The translations under genes were made by a program, and so were the position numbers. The notes beneath the pieces are model-generated. The model searched no databases. It was not told the DNA's origin and saw only the letters and a program-made list of their open reading frames with translations. Positions 27,477 through 30,565 of a stretch of DNA of 64,000 nucleotides are shown here, piece after piece. This DNA comes from a virus. The stretch lies in the IMG/VR virus record IMGVR_UViG_3300019487_000004, positions 1 to 64,000 of that record; one strand, 5' to 3'. Position 1 is the first letter of the stretch. Every line of letters starts with the position of its first letter.

Positions 27477-28028
27477 TCACTGGGACTCCATGATGGCGGT
27501 CGCGAGCTTGACGTCGTTCGCTGTGAGACCGCACAGCGGGTCGGTCAGGATCAGTCGATGCCCGAGCGAGCCCATGTCGCTGCCGTCGTCGAGGATGACG
27601 AAGCGCCGCACGACGCTGTCTGGATGGCTGCGGTTCCAGCGCACGATCCACTCCGCGATCTCGTCGCCTCGTTCGATGCGGTGACCTCGCCGCGCCACGT
27701 TGTAGTCGGACTCGCGGTCGTGGGGCGTCCAGCTGAGGATGTCACCGACGAACCCGTGCTTCATCAAGATGCGCTCGATCTCGAAGATATCGAGCAGCTT
27801 GCGCCAGGTCGAGCTGACGACGACCATCGCTCCTGTTCGCTGCAAGAGCGCGTTGAGGTGGCTGACGGCTTCGTGGTCGATGTTGTTCTCGTGGAGCAAG
27901 AAGAACCCACCGCGATCCGTGCAGTCGCACGACGCGCCGGCATGCTTCGCGAGATGCTCGCGCTCGCGTCGCAGCGCGAACTGCTCGCTGTTGAGCACAC
28001 CATCGATATCGAGGAAGACCACGTTCAT
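27477..28028 (-). CDS. HAD-superfamily phosphatase-like protein
   Basis: N-terminal MNVVFLDIDGVLN (DxDGV motif I), VVSSTW (motif II-like), ILDDGSD (motif IV-like). Confidence 0.6.
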   Translation of the reverse strand: MNVVFLDIDGVLNSEQFALRREREHLAKHAGASCDCTDRGGFFLLHENNIDHEAVSHLNALLQRTGAMVVVSSTWRKLLDIFEIERILMKHGFVGDILSWTPHDRESDYNVARRGHRIERGDEIAEWIVRWNRSHPDSVVRRFVILDDGSDMGSLGHRLILTDPLCGLTANDVKLATAIMESQ

Positions 28029-28249
28029 GGTGAGCGGGTCCGCACCGTCGCAACGATGCCGCGAAGCTCTCGCTTGACGACATCCACCTCACGAGCATCG
28101 GCGCACTCGCGCCACAGCCCGTTGAGCGTCACCGCGATGGTGTTGCTCGGTTGGATCGCCTGTTCGAGCAGGTGAGCGACCTGCCGTCGGGTGAGCTGCC
28201 GTAGCTCACGGTCCCGCGCCATCAATGCTGTCCTTGTCTCTGCCGGCAC
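28025..28249 (-). CDS. hypothetical protein (74 aa)
   Basis: Track ORF; overlap with the HAD start. Confidence 0.5.
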   Translation of the reverse strand: MPAETRTALMARDRELRQLTRRQVAHLLEQAIQPSNTIAVTLNGLWRECADAREVDVVKRELRGIVATVRTRSP

Positions 28250-28251
28250 TG

Positions 28252-28341
28252 CTACTCCTTGCGAAACAGCTTGCTGAACGAGGCGATCAAGATCGCCCCT
28301 GCCGCGGCAAACAGCACCGCTGCCATCACCTCATCAAACAT
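28252..28341 (-). CDS. possible 29-aa single-TM peptide (MFDEVMAAVLFAAAGAILIASFSKLFRKE)
   Basis: Fills the gap exactly between two genes; below the track cut-off. Confidence 0.3.
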   Translation of the reverse strand: MFDEVMAAVLFAAAGAILIASFSKLFRKE

Positions 28342-28629
28342 CTAGACCTCGACGCCCGGCGCGAGGCGCCGGATGTTATCGATCTCTTTGCGTAGCTCCG
28401 CACGTCGCGTCTCGATCGCGTTCTGCACGATGTGCGGAGGCTCGATCGACCATGCGGGGATCATCGGGCCACGATCGAGCCCGTTGAACGTGAGTGCGTG
28501 CCCCGATGCAACCACGAGCCACACGCGCCCGTTCGCGTCGACGAACGCTGCCTTGAACGTCTCGCCGATGACGGCTTCGAAGATCGCAATCGCGTTGCGA
28601 TCGGGGCCCGAGTAGCTCGCGAGTGCCAT
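28342..28629 (-). CDS. hypothetical protein (95 aa)
   Basis: Start trimmed to ATG 28629, 4 nt downstream of the Ro60-like stop. Confidence 0.5.
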   Translation of the reverse strand: MALASYSGPDRNAIAIFEAVIGETFKAAFVDANGRVWLVVASGHALTFNGLDRGPMIPAWSIEPPHIVQNAIETRRAELRKEIDNIRRLAPGVEV

Positions 28630-28633
28630 GACC

Positions 28634-30565
28634 CTAGGCCCACTGCGGCTTGGCGAGGAGGTCCGTCTGCAGGATGAGATCGACCAGCGTCGCGCGAGGC
28701 ACCGCACGCGTAGCCTGCACCGCACCGACCGGTGTTGCCTGCATGAGCGCTCGAATCGTGCGCGGAATCGCGTACGGATCTGCAAACGTGTTCGGGTCGA
28801 TCAGGAAGCACGGGATGTTGAGCTTGGCGGCGGTGTCACGCACAGCACGGTTGTTGTCCGTGCCGAACGTCTGCGCACGCCAGCCCGCGGCGCCGTGGTT
28901 CGCGATGATACGCAGCAGTCCGAACGCGCTCGGCTTGAGGCCGAGATTCGTGATCGTACGGTCGAACGTGTGAGCCTCCTCGTCGCCGACGAAGAACATG
29001 ACGAGATCCTCGTCGTCCTTCGGCAGACGCGCAGTGCGGCACGCGCGAACGCCCTCGCCGTAGTCGGTCGAGCCGCCTGCGGCGATGCCACGGAATGCGG
29101 CCTCGACGCCGGCAGCCGACGCGTGCGGGATGCGCACGAGGCGGCCAGCGCTGTTGAACACCGACACGACGAGACGATCGAGCGGGAAGCCCTGTAGGAA
29201 CTTGCCGATGTACTCCTTCGCGAGATCGATCGCGCCGGTCATCGACGACGAGATATCGACGATGAAGTAGATCAGCATATCGCGCGTGACCGCCTCGACG
29301 GCCTTCTGCAGCGCGGCGTCCGCACCCTGCTCCAGCGTCTCGGCGACCTCCTTGCTGCGGACGTTCTTCGCGATGTTCGCAGAGCGCATATCGTCCGCGG
29401 CCTTGACCGCCTTCTCCCAACGCTTGCGAACGTCGGGCACATCGAGCAGGCCCAGCTCTTCGAGCGTGGGCGTTGCAATCACGAGGTCCTTGTCGGATAG
29501 GCCACCCGATGCCATCGCCGCCGCGACGATCGCGCGCGTGACGCCGACCTCAGCCGGCAGCATGCCGACGAGGCGCTTCCAGTTCGGCTTCTGCTTCGTG
29601 ATCAGCAGGCAGATCTCGGGCTCGGTCTTGCCGGTCCACGTCTCCGCGGCAGTGACAGCTTCGCCAATCGCGAGCGTGCGACGGCCGTCCTTTGCCTGCG
29701 CCTGCTTCCAACGCAGTGCCTGGAAGAACTTCGGCGTCGTCGGCTTGTAGTGAACGCGACGCGCGAGGTCCATGACCGTCGTGCGCCAGCCGTCCTTGAC
29801 GAGACCTTCGAGGAGCTTGGGGTTCTCCTCGCGGTGCTCCAGCCACTTCGTCACGACCTTCGGCCAGCGACCGAGAAACGCCGAGCGTGCGGAGTTGCCG
29901 AAACCCAACTCGTGGTTGATCTTCACGACCTCGGGCAGCGTGAGCACATCGTGGATGCGCAGCAGCATCTTCGGCGCGAAGTGCTTCTTGTCCTTGCGGT
30001 AGAGCAGCATCATCGCTTCGCCGACGTCGCGGTAGTCCGCGTCGTAGAACGCGACCTTGCCAGCGTCGACGACCGGATCACCCTTGCGCGTCTGCACGAG
30101 CAGGAACGCCGCGAGCAGCACCTTGAGGTCCTTGTGCTCCTGCACGAACGCGTAGCTCGCCCACTTCGCGACGAACTCGTGGTCGAGCTTGTAGACCTCG
30201 GCGATCTGCTTCCAGAACCACGTCGCGACCTCGGGGAAGATACCCGGGAGACGATACTCGCCGAGGATCGCACCGTTCGGGCTCGCCTCGGTGCGCACGT
30301 GCGTGATCGTGCCCGACGGACCAACCGCCTCGGTCATGTAGCCGAGCTTGGTGCGGGTTTCCTTCTTGCCGCGCTTCTCGATCTTGTAGACGACCTTCTT
30401 GCCGTCCTCGACCTTGTGTGTGACCGGGAACCACTCGACGCCAATCGCGTGGCGCTCGCTCTTTACGACGACACCGGGACGACCGTGATAGAGGTGGTCC
30501 TGGTACGTCAGAAGCGTGTTGATGATGTGCTCGGCCGGGCCGAGGTTCTCGCGTGCGGCAACCAT
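28634..30565 (-). CDS. Ro60-like protein (TROVE-like helical domain plus C-terminal vWA)
   Basis: C-terminal MIDAS FIVDISSSMTG. N-terminal helical region contains GWRTTVMDLARRVHYKP, which matches the GW..DLLRL.H.KP signature I recall from Ro60 TROVE domains. The domain order is that of Ro60/Rsr. Confidence 0.6.
   Translation of the reverse strand: MVAARENLGPAEHIINTLLTYQDHLYHGRPGVVVKSERHAIGVEWFPVTHKVEDGKKVVYKIEKRGKKETRTKLGYMTEAVGPSGTITHVRTEASPNGAILGEYRLPGIFPEVATWFWKQIAEVYKLDHEFVAKWASYAFVQEHKDLKVLLAAFLLVQTRKGDPVVDAGKVAFYDADYRDVGEAMMLLYRKDKKHFAPKMLLRIHDVLTLPEVVKINHELGFGNSARSAFLGRWPKVVTKWLEHREENPKLLEGLVKDGWRTTVMDLARRVHYKPTTPKFFQALRWKQAQAKDGRRTLAIGEAVTAAETWTGKTEPEICLLITKQKPNWKRLVGMLPAEVGVTRAIVAAAMASGGLSDKDLVIATPTLEELGLLDVPDVRKRWEKAVKAADDMRSANIAKNVRSKEVAETLEQGADAALQKAVEAVTRDMLIYFIVDISSSMTGAIDLAKEYIGKFLQGFPLDRLVVSVFNSAGRLVRIPHASAAGVEAAFRGIAAGGSTDYGEGVRACRTARLPKDDEDLVMFFVGDEEAHTFDRTITNLGLKPSAFGLLRIIANHGAAGWRAQTFGTDNNRAVRDTAAKLNIPCFLIDPNTFADPYAIPRTIRALMQATPVGAVQATRAVPRATLVDLILQTDLLAKPQWA

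What the first reader, a model, noticed from the sequence alone, without database searches (positions are those of the whole stretch)
27477..30565. Ro60 (TROVE+vWA)-like protein encoded with an HAD phosphatase in the same element as the tRNA-mimic array
The 643-aa protein pairs a helical N-terminal region carrying GWRTTVMDLARRVHYKP with a C-terminal vWA MIDAS (VDISSSM). This is the Ro60/Rsr domain order. Bacterial Ro60 orthologs bind Y RNAs, and the YrlA class of Y RNAs combines a protein-binding stem with a tRNA-like domain lacking a free CCA end. The two capped-acceptor elements at 18.4-18.9 kb have that modular logic: a terminal stem with a conserved internal loop (GCUCCUC on the 3' side in both) plus a tRNA-like body. 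However, the stem leaves from the acceptor side, not the anticodon side. A DxDGV HAD phosphatase three genes downstream could supply RNA end-healing chemistry. The hypothesis is a phage-borne Ro60 / tRNA-like RNA quality-control or repair module.
Basis: partly seen in the sequence, partly recalled or inferred. Interest (0 to 1): 0.7.

Follow-up and report, generated by a model that had tools for sequence, protein, structure and literature searches.

The report
Phage Ro60-like protein with tRNA-like RNAs
The 643-residue protein is a very distant relative of the RNA-binding ring protein Ro60; in jumbo phages it is the first gene of a conserved cassette that also holds ubiquitin-type activation genes and is usually flanked by two new tRNA-like RNAs, whereas the nearby HAD phosphatase is a local insertion.

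Summary
The ORF at 28634-30565(-) is real. It has a complete MIDAS vWA domain. No sequence model detects TROVE. However, a profile-profile comparison with Ro60 gives 96% probability (E 2e-9). A confident AlphaFold model (pTM 0.74) has Ro60 structures as its nine best PDB matches (TM up to 0.47). I read it as a remote Ro60-like protein with an extra N-terminal beta domain.

The HAD_SAK_2 phosphatase is genuine, but it lies near the gene in only 2 of 63 viral loci and 0 of 23 genome loci. The RNA-repair pairing is therefore not supported.

The conserved partners are four other genes in fixed order and on the same strand: a 320-aa unknown protein, a JAMM peptidase, a ~90-aa protein ending in a conserved Gly, and a ThiF/E1 adenylase.

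The capped tRNA-like elements at 18.4-18.85 kb belong to a new RNA family with strong covariation. It lies beside this cassette in 46/63 viral and 8/23 genome loci. A second tRNA-like RNA carries the same CUCG/ACAMGC helix module.

Best reading: a divergent Ro60/Y-RNA-like particle coupled to a ubiquitin-like system. RNA binding itself is inferred, not shown.

The parts
28634..30565 (-). Ro60-like protein, 643 aa. It has an N-terminal beta-rich domain (about residues 25-105), a basic alpha-helical solenoid (about 106-428, pI 9.4) and a C-terminal vWA domain with a complete MIDAS (DxSxS...T...D).
27477..28028 (-). HAD_SAK_2 phosphatase (DxDGV). It is a lineage-specific insertion between the Ro60-like gene and g363, not a conserved member of the cassette.
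   Evidence: Pfam match at 94 bits. Found in only L022 and weakly L019 of 63 viral loci, and in none of 23 genome loci.
24968..25927 (-). g363, a conserved protein of about 320 aa and unknown fold. The likely start is Met45 of the longest ORF, which runs 24968-26059. It has a coiled-coil middle and a C-terminal domain with invariant Cys311 and Cys325 and near-invariant Cys313. In most loci it lies directly downstream of the Ro60-like gene.
   Evidence: Found in 59/63 viral loci, often less than 100 nt from the vWA stop codon. No Pfam, PHROG, PADLOC, NCBIfam or PDB-sequence match.
22507..23301 (-). JAMM/MPN+ metallopeptidase. The conserved core is about 130 aa; the N-terminal part of the longest ORF is not conserved.
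   Evidence: Prok-JAB E 8.5e-4. The motif is intact: E...AH(S/T)HPx7PSxxD. Found in 59/63 viral loci.
22075..22452 (-). Candidate ubiquitin-like protein of about 90 aa, with the conserved C-terminus RPKTPFG followed by 0-5 residues in relatives. The window copy has a 32-aa tail after the conserved Gly.
   Evidence: Alignment A6. Found in 59/63 loci, always between the JAMM and E1 genes. No sequence similarity to ubiquitin, ThiS or MoaD.
19916..20494 (-). ThiF/MoeB-type E1-like adenylase, 192 aa.
   Evidence: PF00899 E 3.3e-22. Matches to NCBIfam ThiF/MoeB/UbaA models and to PADLOC E1-E2 models. Conserved GxGALGSH, DxDxVExKN, DCxDN..R and Cys residues. Found in 55/63 loci.
18443..18572 (-). B1, a capped tRNA-like RNA. 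Layout: P1 helix, internal loop, P2 helix, UACAAGC, 3-bp acceptor, D/anticodon(GAU)/T arms, GNRA hairpin, P2', CUCG, P1'.
   Evidence: CM R1 scores 107.6 bits. Fold z = -4.4. Family covariation.
18721..18850 (-). B2, the second capped tRNA-like RNA (anticodon loop CUAUGGA).
   Evidence: CM R1 scores 102.3 bits..
18577..18710 (-). A3, a tRNA-like RNA with a 7-bp acceptor stem, two hairpins and a T arm. Its insert carries the same CUCG-hairpin...UACACG module. It ends 4 nt before B1.
   Evidence: (tRNA-Sec model, 31 bits, below gathering score).
18857..18985 (-). A2, the same kind of RNA. It ends 6 nt before B2.
19029..19150 (-). A1, a third A-type copy (acceptor GGTGGAA/TTCCACC). No B element directly follows it.
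   Evidence: Sequence; fold.

Best explanation
The 643-aa protein is a highly diverged member of the Ro60/TROVE-vWA superfamily: a basic alpha-helical solenoid closed by a MIDAS vWA domain, plus a lineage-specific N-terminal beta domain. It is the first gene of a six-part cassette conserved in jumbo phages whose likely hosts are Myxococcota. The order is Ro60-like, g363, JAMM peptidase, a ~90-aa Ubl-like protein with a C-terminal Gly, a ThiF/E1 adenylase, and then a tandem pair of tRNA-like non-coding RNAs (A and B).

By analogy with Ro60/Y-RNA particles, I infer that the protein binds the helix module that A and B share. That module is P1, an asymmetric loop with invariant CUCG, P2, and then the invariant ACAMGC. 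The tRNA-like domain would be displayed to tRNA-handling factors. The E1, Ubl and JAMM genes form an E1-only Ubl activation and processing unit of the SAMP/UbaA or TtuB/TtuC type. I infer that it either modifies the particle's proteins or feeds sulfur or an acyl group to tRNA or tRNA-like RNA.

Shown: homology and fold similarity, synteny, RNA structure conservation and co-location. Inferred: RNA binding, and what the Ubl unit does. The HAD_SAK_2 phosphatase is a local insertion in this lineage.
For: Ro60 relationship:
- hhalign of 36 diverse family members against human Ro60 plus six phage Ro60s gives Prob 96.3%, E 2e-9. Target residues 258-532 align with Ro60 175-475, collinear through the helices and the vWA domain.
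- The helical part alone gives E 7.3e-5, score 41.5. Reversed controls score 15 or less, and the best of 20 block-shuffled controls scores 26.5.
- The AF2 model of residues 106-643 has pLDDT 88.7 and pTM 0.74.
- The top nine Foldseek PDB hits are all Ro60/TROVE (9kop 8e-7; 1yvp_B TM 0.47/0.48; 513-589 aligned columns). Every other hit covers only the vWA domain.
- BFVD hits include a Gordonia phage Ro-like RNA-binding protein at 6e-7.
- The MIDAS residues are invariant, and the helical domain has pI 9.4.

Cassette:
- The same order and strand occur in 55-59 of 63 viral loci, and again in genome-bin contigs.
- The JAMM and E1 motifs are intact, and the Ubl-like protein has a conserved C-terminal Gly.

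RNAs:
- The B family CM gives full-length hits of 60 bits or more in 46/63 viral loci. That is 41/47 of the loci with at least 3 kb of sequence past ThiF. Most lie 175-1800 nt downstream of ThiF, and a few lie just upstream of the vWA gene.
- 96.2% of cells are paired, against 33-48% when partners are slid. All 13 P1/P2 pairs show compensatory changes, and 0 of 500 shuffles reach the observed value.
- In the 64-kb window the only two hits lie 1.1-1.3 kb downstream of ThiF.
- A-type RNAs with the same CUCG/ACAMGC module precede 43/57 B elements at a gap of mostly 3-6 nt.
- Precedent: phage Ro60s have adjacent Y-like RNAs (PMC4201824, PMC12135203). In D. radiodurans Yrn1 the order of the D- and T-like arms relative to the RNA's 5' end differs from that in YrlA (PMC4201824).
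Against: - There is no Pfam TROVE match, and no PDB sequence match to Ro60 even with a family profile. Canonical phage Ro60s are 32-40% identical to human Ro60, so this protein is far outside the recognised family.
- TM-scores are 0.48 or lower, and ring closure could not be inspected.
- The W, D and H residues of the GW...D..R..H motif that look Ro60-like in the window copy are not conserved in the family consensus (AGFRTTVMxLARRVGYKP).
- The RNAs lack the Y-RNA GNCGAA motif and score only 20 bits on YrlA.
- About 10 cassette-bearing loci, mostly tRNA-free genome-bin contigs, have no B RNA within 10 kb.
- B elements with 7-bp acceptor stems and an encoded CCA may simply be unusual pre-tRNAs.
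- The Ubl assignment rests on context alone.
Confidence: 0.6

Rival explanations
1. The protein is a protein-binding adaptor of the ubiquitin-like system, a vWA plus helical scaffold like Rpn10 or MERIT40. It would present substrates to, or receive, the Ubl activated by the E1. Its resemblance to Ro60 would be only distant fold ancestry, and it would bind no RNA. The A and B RNAs would be specialised tRNAs or pre-tRNAs that happen to sit in the same tRNA-rich genome region.
For: The gene is tightly linked to the JAMM, Ubl-like and E1 genes and to g363. Foldseek also hits the Rpn10 and TFIIH p44 vWA domains. About 10 cassette loci lack B RNA nearby. 36/63 loci sit in arrays of 10 or more tRNAs. 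Many B cores are called as tRNAs with 7-bp acceptor stems and N-CCA.
Against: Only Ro60 structures align over the helical region. Rpn10 and p44 match the vWA domain only, about 200 columns. The helical domain is basic. A/B RNAs stay with the cassette in phages that have almost no tRNAs, including the window itself. The P1/P2 cap with invariant CUCG/ACAMGC is shared by two different RNA scaffolds, which argues for a dedicated binding site.
Confidence: 0.22
2. This is the first reader's model: a Ro60 / tRNA-like RNA quality-control or repair module in which the HAD_SAK_2 phosphatase supplies 3'-end healing.
For: HAD_SAK_2 is a family described in RNA-repair contexts, and it occurs as a stand-alone gene in jumbo phages (PMC7824862). 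Virus Rctr197k has a HAD-like gene upstream of the tRNA array that precedes the homologue.
Against: HAD_SAK_2 lies within 10 kb in 2/63 viral and 0/23 genome loci. In the window it is one of several lineage-specific insertions that stretch the cassette (shared only with L022). No RNA ligase, kinase or cyclase was found among the conserved neighbours.
Confidence: 0.05
3. The cassette is a tRNA thiolation or other tRNA modification pathway. The E1 would adenylate the Ubl-like carrier and JAMM would trim its tail. g363, with its conserved cysteines, would transfer sulfur, and the Ro60-like protein would be the tRNA-holding scaffold. The A and B RNAs or the array tRNAs would be the substrates.
For: The E1 is closest to ThiF, MoeB and UbaA models. 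E1 + Ubl + JAMM without a recognisable E2 is the layout of the SAMP/UbaA and TtuB/TtuC systems that serve tRNA thiolation (established knowledge; PMC2948915, PMC3980101). The cassette is embedded in tRNA arrays. g363 has invariant Cys311 and Cys325 and near-invariant Cys313.
Against: No PP-loop ATPase (TtuA/Ncs6 type) was found among the conserved genes. The Ubl-like protein ends in PFG rather than GG and has no detectable similarity to ThiS or MoaD. No rhodanese or cysteine desulfurase was seen.
Confidence: 0.13

Closest known systems
Ro60/Rsr with Y RNAs (bacterial Rsr-YrlA/YrlB, D. radiodurans Rsr-Yrn1, Thermus phage phiLo phiRo60-Yrl1/2; PDB 1YVP, 2NVO, 9KOP, 9L5Y)
   Same: Both have a helical solenoid followed by a MIDAS vWA domain. 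Ro60 gives the best structural and profile matches. Both have adjacent same-strand non-coding RNAs that combine a terminal helix and conserved internal loop with a tRNA-like domain, and they often come in two kinds per locus (PMC4201824, PMC12135203).
   Different: There is no TROVE HMM match, there is an extra N-terminal beta domain, and sequence identity is about 12-17%. The RNAs are new families: they have CUCG/ACAMGC rather than GNCGAA, the D-anticodon-T order with the stem on the acceptor side, and a YrlA CM score of only 20 bits. The partner genes are JAMM, a Ubl-like protein, an E1 and g363, not RtcB/RtcA or PNPase.
E1-only ubiquitin-like systems: archaeal SAMP/UbaA/HvJAMM1 and Thermus TtuB/TtuC
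   Same: A ThiF/MoeB-type E1, a small carrier with a C-terminal Gly, a JAMM peptidase, no recognisable E2 or E3, and a functional tie to tRNA.
   Different: The carrier ends in PFG(+0-5 aa) and shows no sequence similarity to ThiS, MoaD or ubiquitin. There is no PP-loop thiolase. The system is phage-encoded and fused in synteny with a Ro60-like protein and tRNA-like RNAs.
Bacterial antiphage Ubl pathways (CBASS Cap2/Cap3, Bil, Bub)
   Same: An E1 domain, whose best PADLOC matches are E1-E2 Cap2 models, together with a JAB peptidase and a Ubl.
   Different: No E2 domain was detected, there is no cGAS-like or effector gene, and the system is carried by phages rather than defence islands. None of the other four cassette proteins gave a PADLOC match.
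Swiss-army-knife HAD RNA-repair phosphatases (PF18143)
   Same: The window's 183-aa ORF is a clear member (94 bits) with the DxDGV nucleophile motif.
   Different: It is not linked to the Ro60-like cassette outside this lineage.

Membership tests
Ro60 / TROVE-vWA | Match to the TROVE sequence model (Pfam PF05731), or sequence similarity to solved Ro60 structures | tested here: not met
   No TROVE hit at E<=1. phmmer and a family-profile hmmsearch against PDB sequences find only vWA proteins. Ten distant relatives have no TROVE hit either.
Ro60 / TROVE-vWA | Profile-profile homology to Ro60 that spans both the helical region and the vWA domain | tested here: met
   hhalign Prob 96.3%, E 2e-9, 260 columns. 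The helical part alone gives E 7e-5, against 0.011 or worse in reversed, shuffled and cross-domain controls.
Ro60 / TROVE-vWA | C-terminal vWA domain with a MIDAS (DxSxS...T...D) | tested here: met
   VWA_2 E 2.7e-6. D437, S439 and S441 are invariant, and T500 and D528 nearly so. The DxSxSM and GGTD strings parallel those of Ro60.
Ro60 / TROVE-vWA | Helical-repeat ring closed by the vWA domain (doughnut fold) | tested here: inconclusive
   The model (pTM 0.74) has Ro60 structures as its top nine PDB matches over 513-589 columns. However, TM is only 0.31-0.48 with rmsd of about 9-13 A. Model coordinates could not be inspected for a closed ring.
Ro60 / TROVE-vWA | A Y-type non-coding RNA encoded nearby on the same strand | tested here: met
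   A new covarying RNA family flanks the cassette in 46/63 viral and 8/23 genome loci. In the window it lies 1.1-1.3 kb past the last cassette gene, about 9.8 kb from the Ro60-like gene itself.
Ro60 / TROVE-vWA | Binds Y RNA or misfolded RNA | not testable with these tools
   Needs EMSA or CLIP.
YrlA Y RNA (Rfam RF02553) | Covariance-model score at or above the gathering score of 69 bits | tested here: not met
   20.2 and 16.8 bits.
YrlA Y RNA (Rfam RF02553) | T arm, closed acceptor-like stem-loop, then D arm, with the Ro-binding stem in the anticodon position; GNCGAAN0-1G near the 5' end | tested here: not met
   B elements have the D-anticodon-T order with the stem on the acceptor side. Their invariant motifs are ACAMGC (5') and CUCG (3').
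tRNA (Rfam RF00005) | Cloverleaf with a 7-bp acceptor stem and a free 3' end | tested here: not met
   The window copies match model positions 5-66 only and have a 3-bp acceptor stem buried inside P2/P1. Relatives of the other subtype do have 7-bp acceptor stems.
HAD_SAK_2 (PF18143) | HMM match above cutoff and the DxDGV nucleophile motif | tested here: met
   94.1 bits against a cutoff of 27.5; the sequence starts MNVVFLDIDGVLN.
HAD_SAK_2 as a partner of the Ro60-like gene | Conserved co-location across related loci | tested here: not met
   2/63 viral loci by tblastn and phmmer, and 0/23 genome loci by tblastn.
E1 / ThiF-MoeB adenylase | ThiF-family HMM match and nucleotide-binding motifs | tested here: met
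   PF00899 E 3.3e-22. GxGALGSH, DxDxVExKN and DCxDN..R are conserved.
JAMM/MPN+ peptidase | The E...HxHx7Sx2D metal site | tested here: met
   The motif is conserved in 20 aligned homologues. The Pfam Prok-JAB match is only 19.6 bits, below the cutoff of 25.
Ubiquitin-like (beta-grasp) carrier | Beta-grasp fold; C-terminal Gly exposed or trimmed | tested here: inconclusive
   The conserved ...RPKTPFG is followed by 0-5 residues in 23 of the 24 aligned sequences; the window copy is the exception, with a 32-aa tail. hhalign against ubiquitin, ThiS and MoaD is negative.

The most novel reading that the evidence does not exclude
A previously unrecognised kind of phage ribonucleoprotein system. In it, a Ro60-like ring and two tRNA-like 'Y' RNAs would be mechanistically coupled to a ubiquitin-like activation unit. 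For example, the E1-activated Ubl, or sulfur carried on it, would be delivered to the tRNA-like RNAs or to tRNAs held by the Ro60-like protein. Alternatively, Ubl conjugation would switch the particle on and off. This would be the first functional link between Ro60/Y-RNA biology and Ubl chemistry.
Probability: 0.3. Interest if true: 0.85.

Novelty: new variant of a known kind. Interest (0 to 1): 0.72.

Why it matters
Ro60/Y-RNA particles are conserved from bacteria to humans, yet their mechanism is still only partly understood. This family is invisible to the TROVE model, and no source in the database searched gives any member a name beyond 'hypothetical' or 'vWA'. I found no paper describing the cassette.

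The family is abundant: 1425 homologues, many on jumbo-phage contigs of 190-620 kb. It comes with two well-defined, strongly covarying RNA partners and a fixed set of Ubl-type enzymes.

This gives a compact, testable system of six parts in about 5 kb. It can be used to ask what a Ro60-like ring does with tRNA-like RNAs, why large phages invest in it next to their tRNA arrays, and whether Ubl chemistry acts on RNPs or RNA. It also adds two candidate RNA families and a remote Ro60 clade for annotation.

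Tried and rejected
- Sequence-level TROVE detection gave only vWA or nothing. I tried Pfam, PHROGs, NCBIfam and PADLOC on the protein, Pfam on ten distant relatives, and PDB sequence searches with one sequence and with a profile.
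- The first AF2 model of the full protein, with a shallow alignment, had pTM 0.47. It gave Ro60 hits with TM of about 0.2, too weak to use. It was replaced by a model of residues 106-643 built on a more diverse alignment.
- YrlA/Y_RNA membership of the RNAs is rejected.
- The HAD association is rejected.
- g363 as an E2: the local string GICL(T/Q)(D/N)H recalls the E2 motif GxICLD. hhalign against UBE2D2 gives Prob 0.1%, and there are no Pfam hits in 24 members. Not supported.
- g363 and the Ubl-like protein against PDB sequences found nothing.
- The Ubl-like protein against ubiquitin, ThiS and MoaD by hhalign found nothing.
- Literature searches for this cassette found no description of it (with papers read).
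- I did not build a CM for the A-type RNA. Its evidence is motif- and alignment-level only.

Full report
**1. The observation**

The ORF at 28634..30565(-) encodes 643 aa. Its base composition is of the coding type (GC3 0.86).

Pfam finds one domain, VWA_2, at residues 433-513 (E 2.7e-6). The MIDAS residues D437, S439 and S441 are invariant across 36 diverse homologues, and T500 and D528 are nearly so.

The ORF at 27477..28028(-) begins MNVVFLDIDGVLN. It is a clear HAD_SAK_2 member (PF18143, 94 bits; phrog_1818).

The two 'capped' tRNA-like elements are real. Rfam's tRNA model matches only positions 5-66 at 18483-18546 and 18762-18824. The flanks pair into long terminal helices.

The protein family is large. 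There are 1425 database hits, the best 120 are 58-70% identical, and none is named beyond 'hypothetical' or 'vWA'.

**2. Is it Ro60-like?**

There is no TROVE match in Pfam, for this protein or for ten distant relatives. There is no match to Ro60 among PDB sequences, even with a family profile. Canonical phage Ro60s are easy to recognise, being 32-40% identical to human Ro60 in 357 phage records. This protein is therefore far outside the recognised family.

More sensitive methods do connect it to Ro60.

- I built a Ro60 profile from human Ro60 and six phage Ro60 proteins. I had recalled the human sequence from memory and then verified it as identical to PDB 9nen.
- hhalign of a 36-member family profile against this Ro60 profile gives Prob 96.3%, E 2e-9. 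Target residues 258-532 align with Ro60 175-475, collinear through five or six helices and the vWA domain.
- With the vWA domain removed, the helical regions still align: E 7.3e-5, score 41.5, 124 columns. Cross-domain, reversed and block-shuffled controls give E of 0.011 or worse and scores of 26.5 or less.
- An AlphaFold model of the full protein was poor (pTM 0.47). A model of residues 106-643, built on a more diverse 51-sequence alignment, is confident (pLDDT 88.7, pTM 0.74).
- The nine best PDB matches of the second model are all Ro60/TROVE structures. They include Thermus phage phiRo60, Xenopus Ro60 and human Ro60, with E 8e-7 to 7e-5, 513-589 aligned columns and TM up to 0.47/0.48. Every other hit covers only the vWA domain.
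- Among viral predicted structures, the best hits include a Gordonia phage 'Ro-like RNA binding protein' and DUF2828 proteins.

There are caveats. TM stays below 0.5, and I could not inspect the ring. The W, D and H residues that make GWRTTVMDLARRVHYKP look like Ro60's GWSHKDLLRLSHLKP are not conserved in the family consensus.

I conclude that it is a remote Ro60-superfamily protein with an added N-terminal beta domain (residues ~25-105). Its helical domain is basic (pI 9.4).

**3. The real neighbourhood**

A scan of IMG/VR returned 62 related loci, mostly on contigs of 190-620 kb. The GenBank virus Rctr197k adds one more.

The HAD phosphatase is found within 10 kb in only two of these 63 loci, by both tblastn and phmmer. 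It is found in none of 23 further loci from genome bins. It is one of several insertions that stretch the cassette in the window's lineage, shared only with L022.

Four other genes follow the Ro60-like gene in the same order and on the same strand in 55-59 of the 63 loci:

- **g363** (window 24968-25927). It is usually adjacent to the Ro60-like gene. It matches no family and has conserved cysteines.
- **A JAMM peptidase** (window 22507-23301) with an intact E...HxHx7Sx2D site.
- **A ~90-aa protein** (window 22075-22452). Its conserved C-terminus RPKTPFG is followed by 0-5 residues in relatives.
- **A ThiF/MoeB-type E1** (window 19916-20494).

Compact versions occupy about 4.2 kb (for example L036). 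The same cassette recurs in contigs binned with Myxococcota genomes, which suggests the host range. The JAMM gene is undetected in some of them.

An E1, a JAMM peptidase and a small protein with a C-terminal Gly between them make up the layout of a Ubl activation and processing unit. The Ubl assignment is inferred from context only, because hhalign against ubiquitin, ThiS and MoaD is negative.

**4. tRNA context**

In 36 of 63 loci the cassette sits in an array of 10 or more tRNA genes, with a median of 15 per locus of 22 kb or less. In 24 loci a same-strand tRNA ends within 500 nt of the gene start. Eighteen loci have three or fewer tRNAs. The window has none apart from the capped elements. 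tRNA arrays are therefore frequent neighbours but not obligatory ones.

**5. The RNAs**

Odd 'tRNAs', often with A34 anticodons, lie just past ThiF in many loci. They share the window's capped architecture.

An 11-sequence alignment gives an RNAalifold structure in which 22 of 28 pairs show compensatory changes. A covariance model built from it (R1) gives full-length hits of 60 bits or more in 46 of 63 viral loci. That is 41 of the 47 loci with at least 3 kb of sequence past ThiF. Ordinary tRNAs score below 60 bits, mostly through the tRNA core alone.

Most hits lie 175-1800 nt downstream of ThiF. A few lie 95-1400 nt upstream of the Ro60-like gene. In the 64-kb window the only hits are B1 (107.6 bits) and B2 (102.3 bits), 1.1-1.3 kb past ThiF.

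Across 56 distinct sequences, 96.2% of cells are paired, against 33-48% when partners are slid. All 13 pairs of the two capping helices (P1, P2) show changes on both sides, and no shuffle out of 500 reaches the observed values.

The invariant unpaired motifs are ACAMGC, just 5' of the acceptor stem, and CUCG, just 5' of the P1 3' strand. Anticodon loops vary.

There are two subtypes. One has a 7-bp acceptor stem, often followed by N-CCA/UCA. The other, which includes the window copies, has a 3-bp acceptor stem plus a GNRA hairpin.

A second RNA, type A, is about 125-135 nt long. It has a 7-bp acceptor stem, two hairpins and a T arm. It ends 3-6 nt before the B element in nearly all of the 43 (of 57) B elements it precedes. 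Its insert carries the same motifs in the circularly equivalent arrangement: strand, CUCG, hairpin, loop, strand', ACAMGC. The window has three A copies.

Two different scaffolds thus display one conserved helix module. That is what a shared protein-binding site would look like.

These RNAs are not YrlA (20 bits against a gathering score of 69), and they lack the GNCGAA motif of YrlA (PMC4201824).

About ten cassette-bearing loci, mostly tRNA-free genome-bin contigs, have no B RNA within the fetched flanks. The linkage is therefore strong but not universal.

**6. Interpretation**

My best explanation (confidence about 0.6) is a divergent Ro60/Y-RNA-like particle. The Ro60-like protein would bind the CUCG/ACAMGC module of the A and B RNAs. 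The particle is encoded together with an E1-only Ubl unit and g363, whose role is open. The Ubl unit might regulate the particle by conjugation, or it might transfer sulfur or an acyl group to tRNA or tRNA-like RNA.

What is shown: homology and fold similarity, synteny, RNA structure and co-location. What is inferred: RNA binding, and the chemistry of the Ubl unit.

The rivals are as follows:

- A purely protein-binding vWA adaptor of the Ubl system, with the RNAs being special pre-tRNAs (0.22).
- A tRNA-thiolation pathway (0.13). It is weakened by the lack of a PP-loop enzyme and of a GG terminus.

**7. Comparison with what is known, and novelty**

Phage Ro60s with adjacent Y-like RNAs are known (PMC4201824, PMC12135203). 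TROVE proteins and SAK HAD enzymes have been noted in jumbo phages (PMC7824862).

I found no description of this clade, of its fixed association with JAMM, Ubl-like and E1 genes, or of the A and B RNA families. I rate it a new variant of a known kind, with a real chance of new biology in the Ro60-Ubl coupling.

Noticed in passing
window 15419-17752 (-): A second, unrelated vWA protein of 777 aa (VWA_3 at the N-terminus; phrog_2426, E 1.9e-160) lies just downstream of the tRNA-like RNA array. Homologues occur in only 5 of 63 related loci (L020, L022, L023, L024, L041).
   Followed up: partly
window 18577-18710, 18857-18985, 19029-19150 (-): Three copies of a ~125-135 nt tRNA-like 'A' RNA. Each has a 7-bp acceptor stem, a 6-bp/4-nt D-like hairpin and a long insert. 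Rfam's tRNA-Sec model scores 31 bits, below its gathering score of 47. Equivalents precede 43/57 B elements in relatives, mostly at a gap of 3-6 nt.
   Followed up: partly
related loci, e.g. L010:15236-15307, L035:14805-14877, L038:15478-15549, L047:8521-8595, L030:17403-17478; window 18762-18824: Many B-type cores carry A34 anticodons that bacteria do not normally use: AUC, AAC, AUG, AAA and AUU. Several of them correspond to the queuosine-family tRNAs (Asp, His, Asn). Whether they decode, act as decoys, or neither is unknown.
   Followed up: no
window 1-64000: The window has no ordinary tRNA gene. ARAGORN's single call is the B1 element. By contrast, relatives carry a median of 15 and up to 48 tRNAs within 22 kb of the cassette, and three loci also carry a tmRNA gene (L028, L034, L040).
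   Followed up: partly
window 22075-22170 (-), the C-terminal tail of the Ubl-like ORF: In the window the Ubl-like protein continues for 32 residues past the conserved ...PFG, and the tail includes HRCPHC. Relatives stop 0-5 residues after the Gly. The tail could be a substrate for the JAMM peptidase or a read-through artefact.
   Followed up: no
L070-L092 (genome contigs): Nearly all genome-collection hits are contigs binned with Myxococcota (Kofleriaceae, Polyangia, Sandaracinaceae, Sorangium), which suggests the host group. One hit lies on a 1.03-Mb contig (L084, JACKEV010000007.1), so it may be an integrated element. In six of these loci no JAMM gene was detected between g363 and the Ubl-like gene.
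   Followed up: partly
window 34604-35587 (-), 9065-10336 (+), 45595-47148 (-), 54037-56247 (-): Other annotated genes in the window are a tyrosine integrase, a GP88-domain protein, a protein with a PEP-utilising mobile domain, and a GHKL (HATPase_c_3) ATPase. The exact 643-aa protein is on record on a 137.9-kb contig.
   Followed up: no
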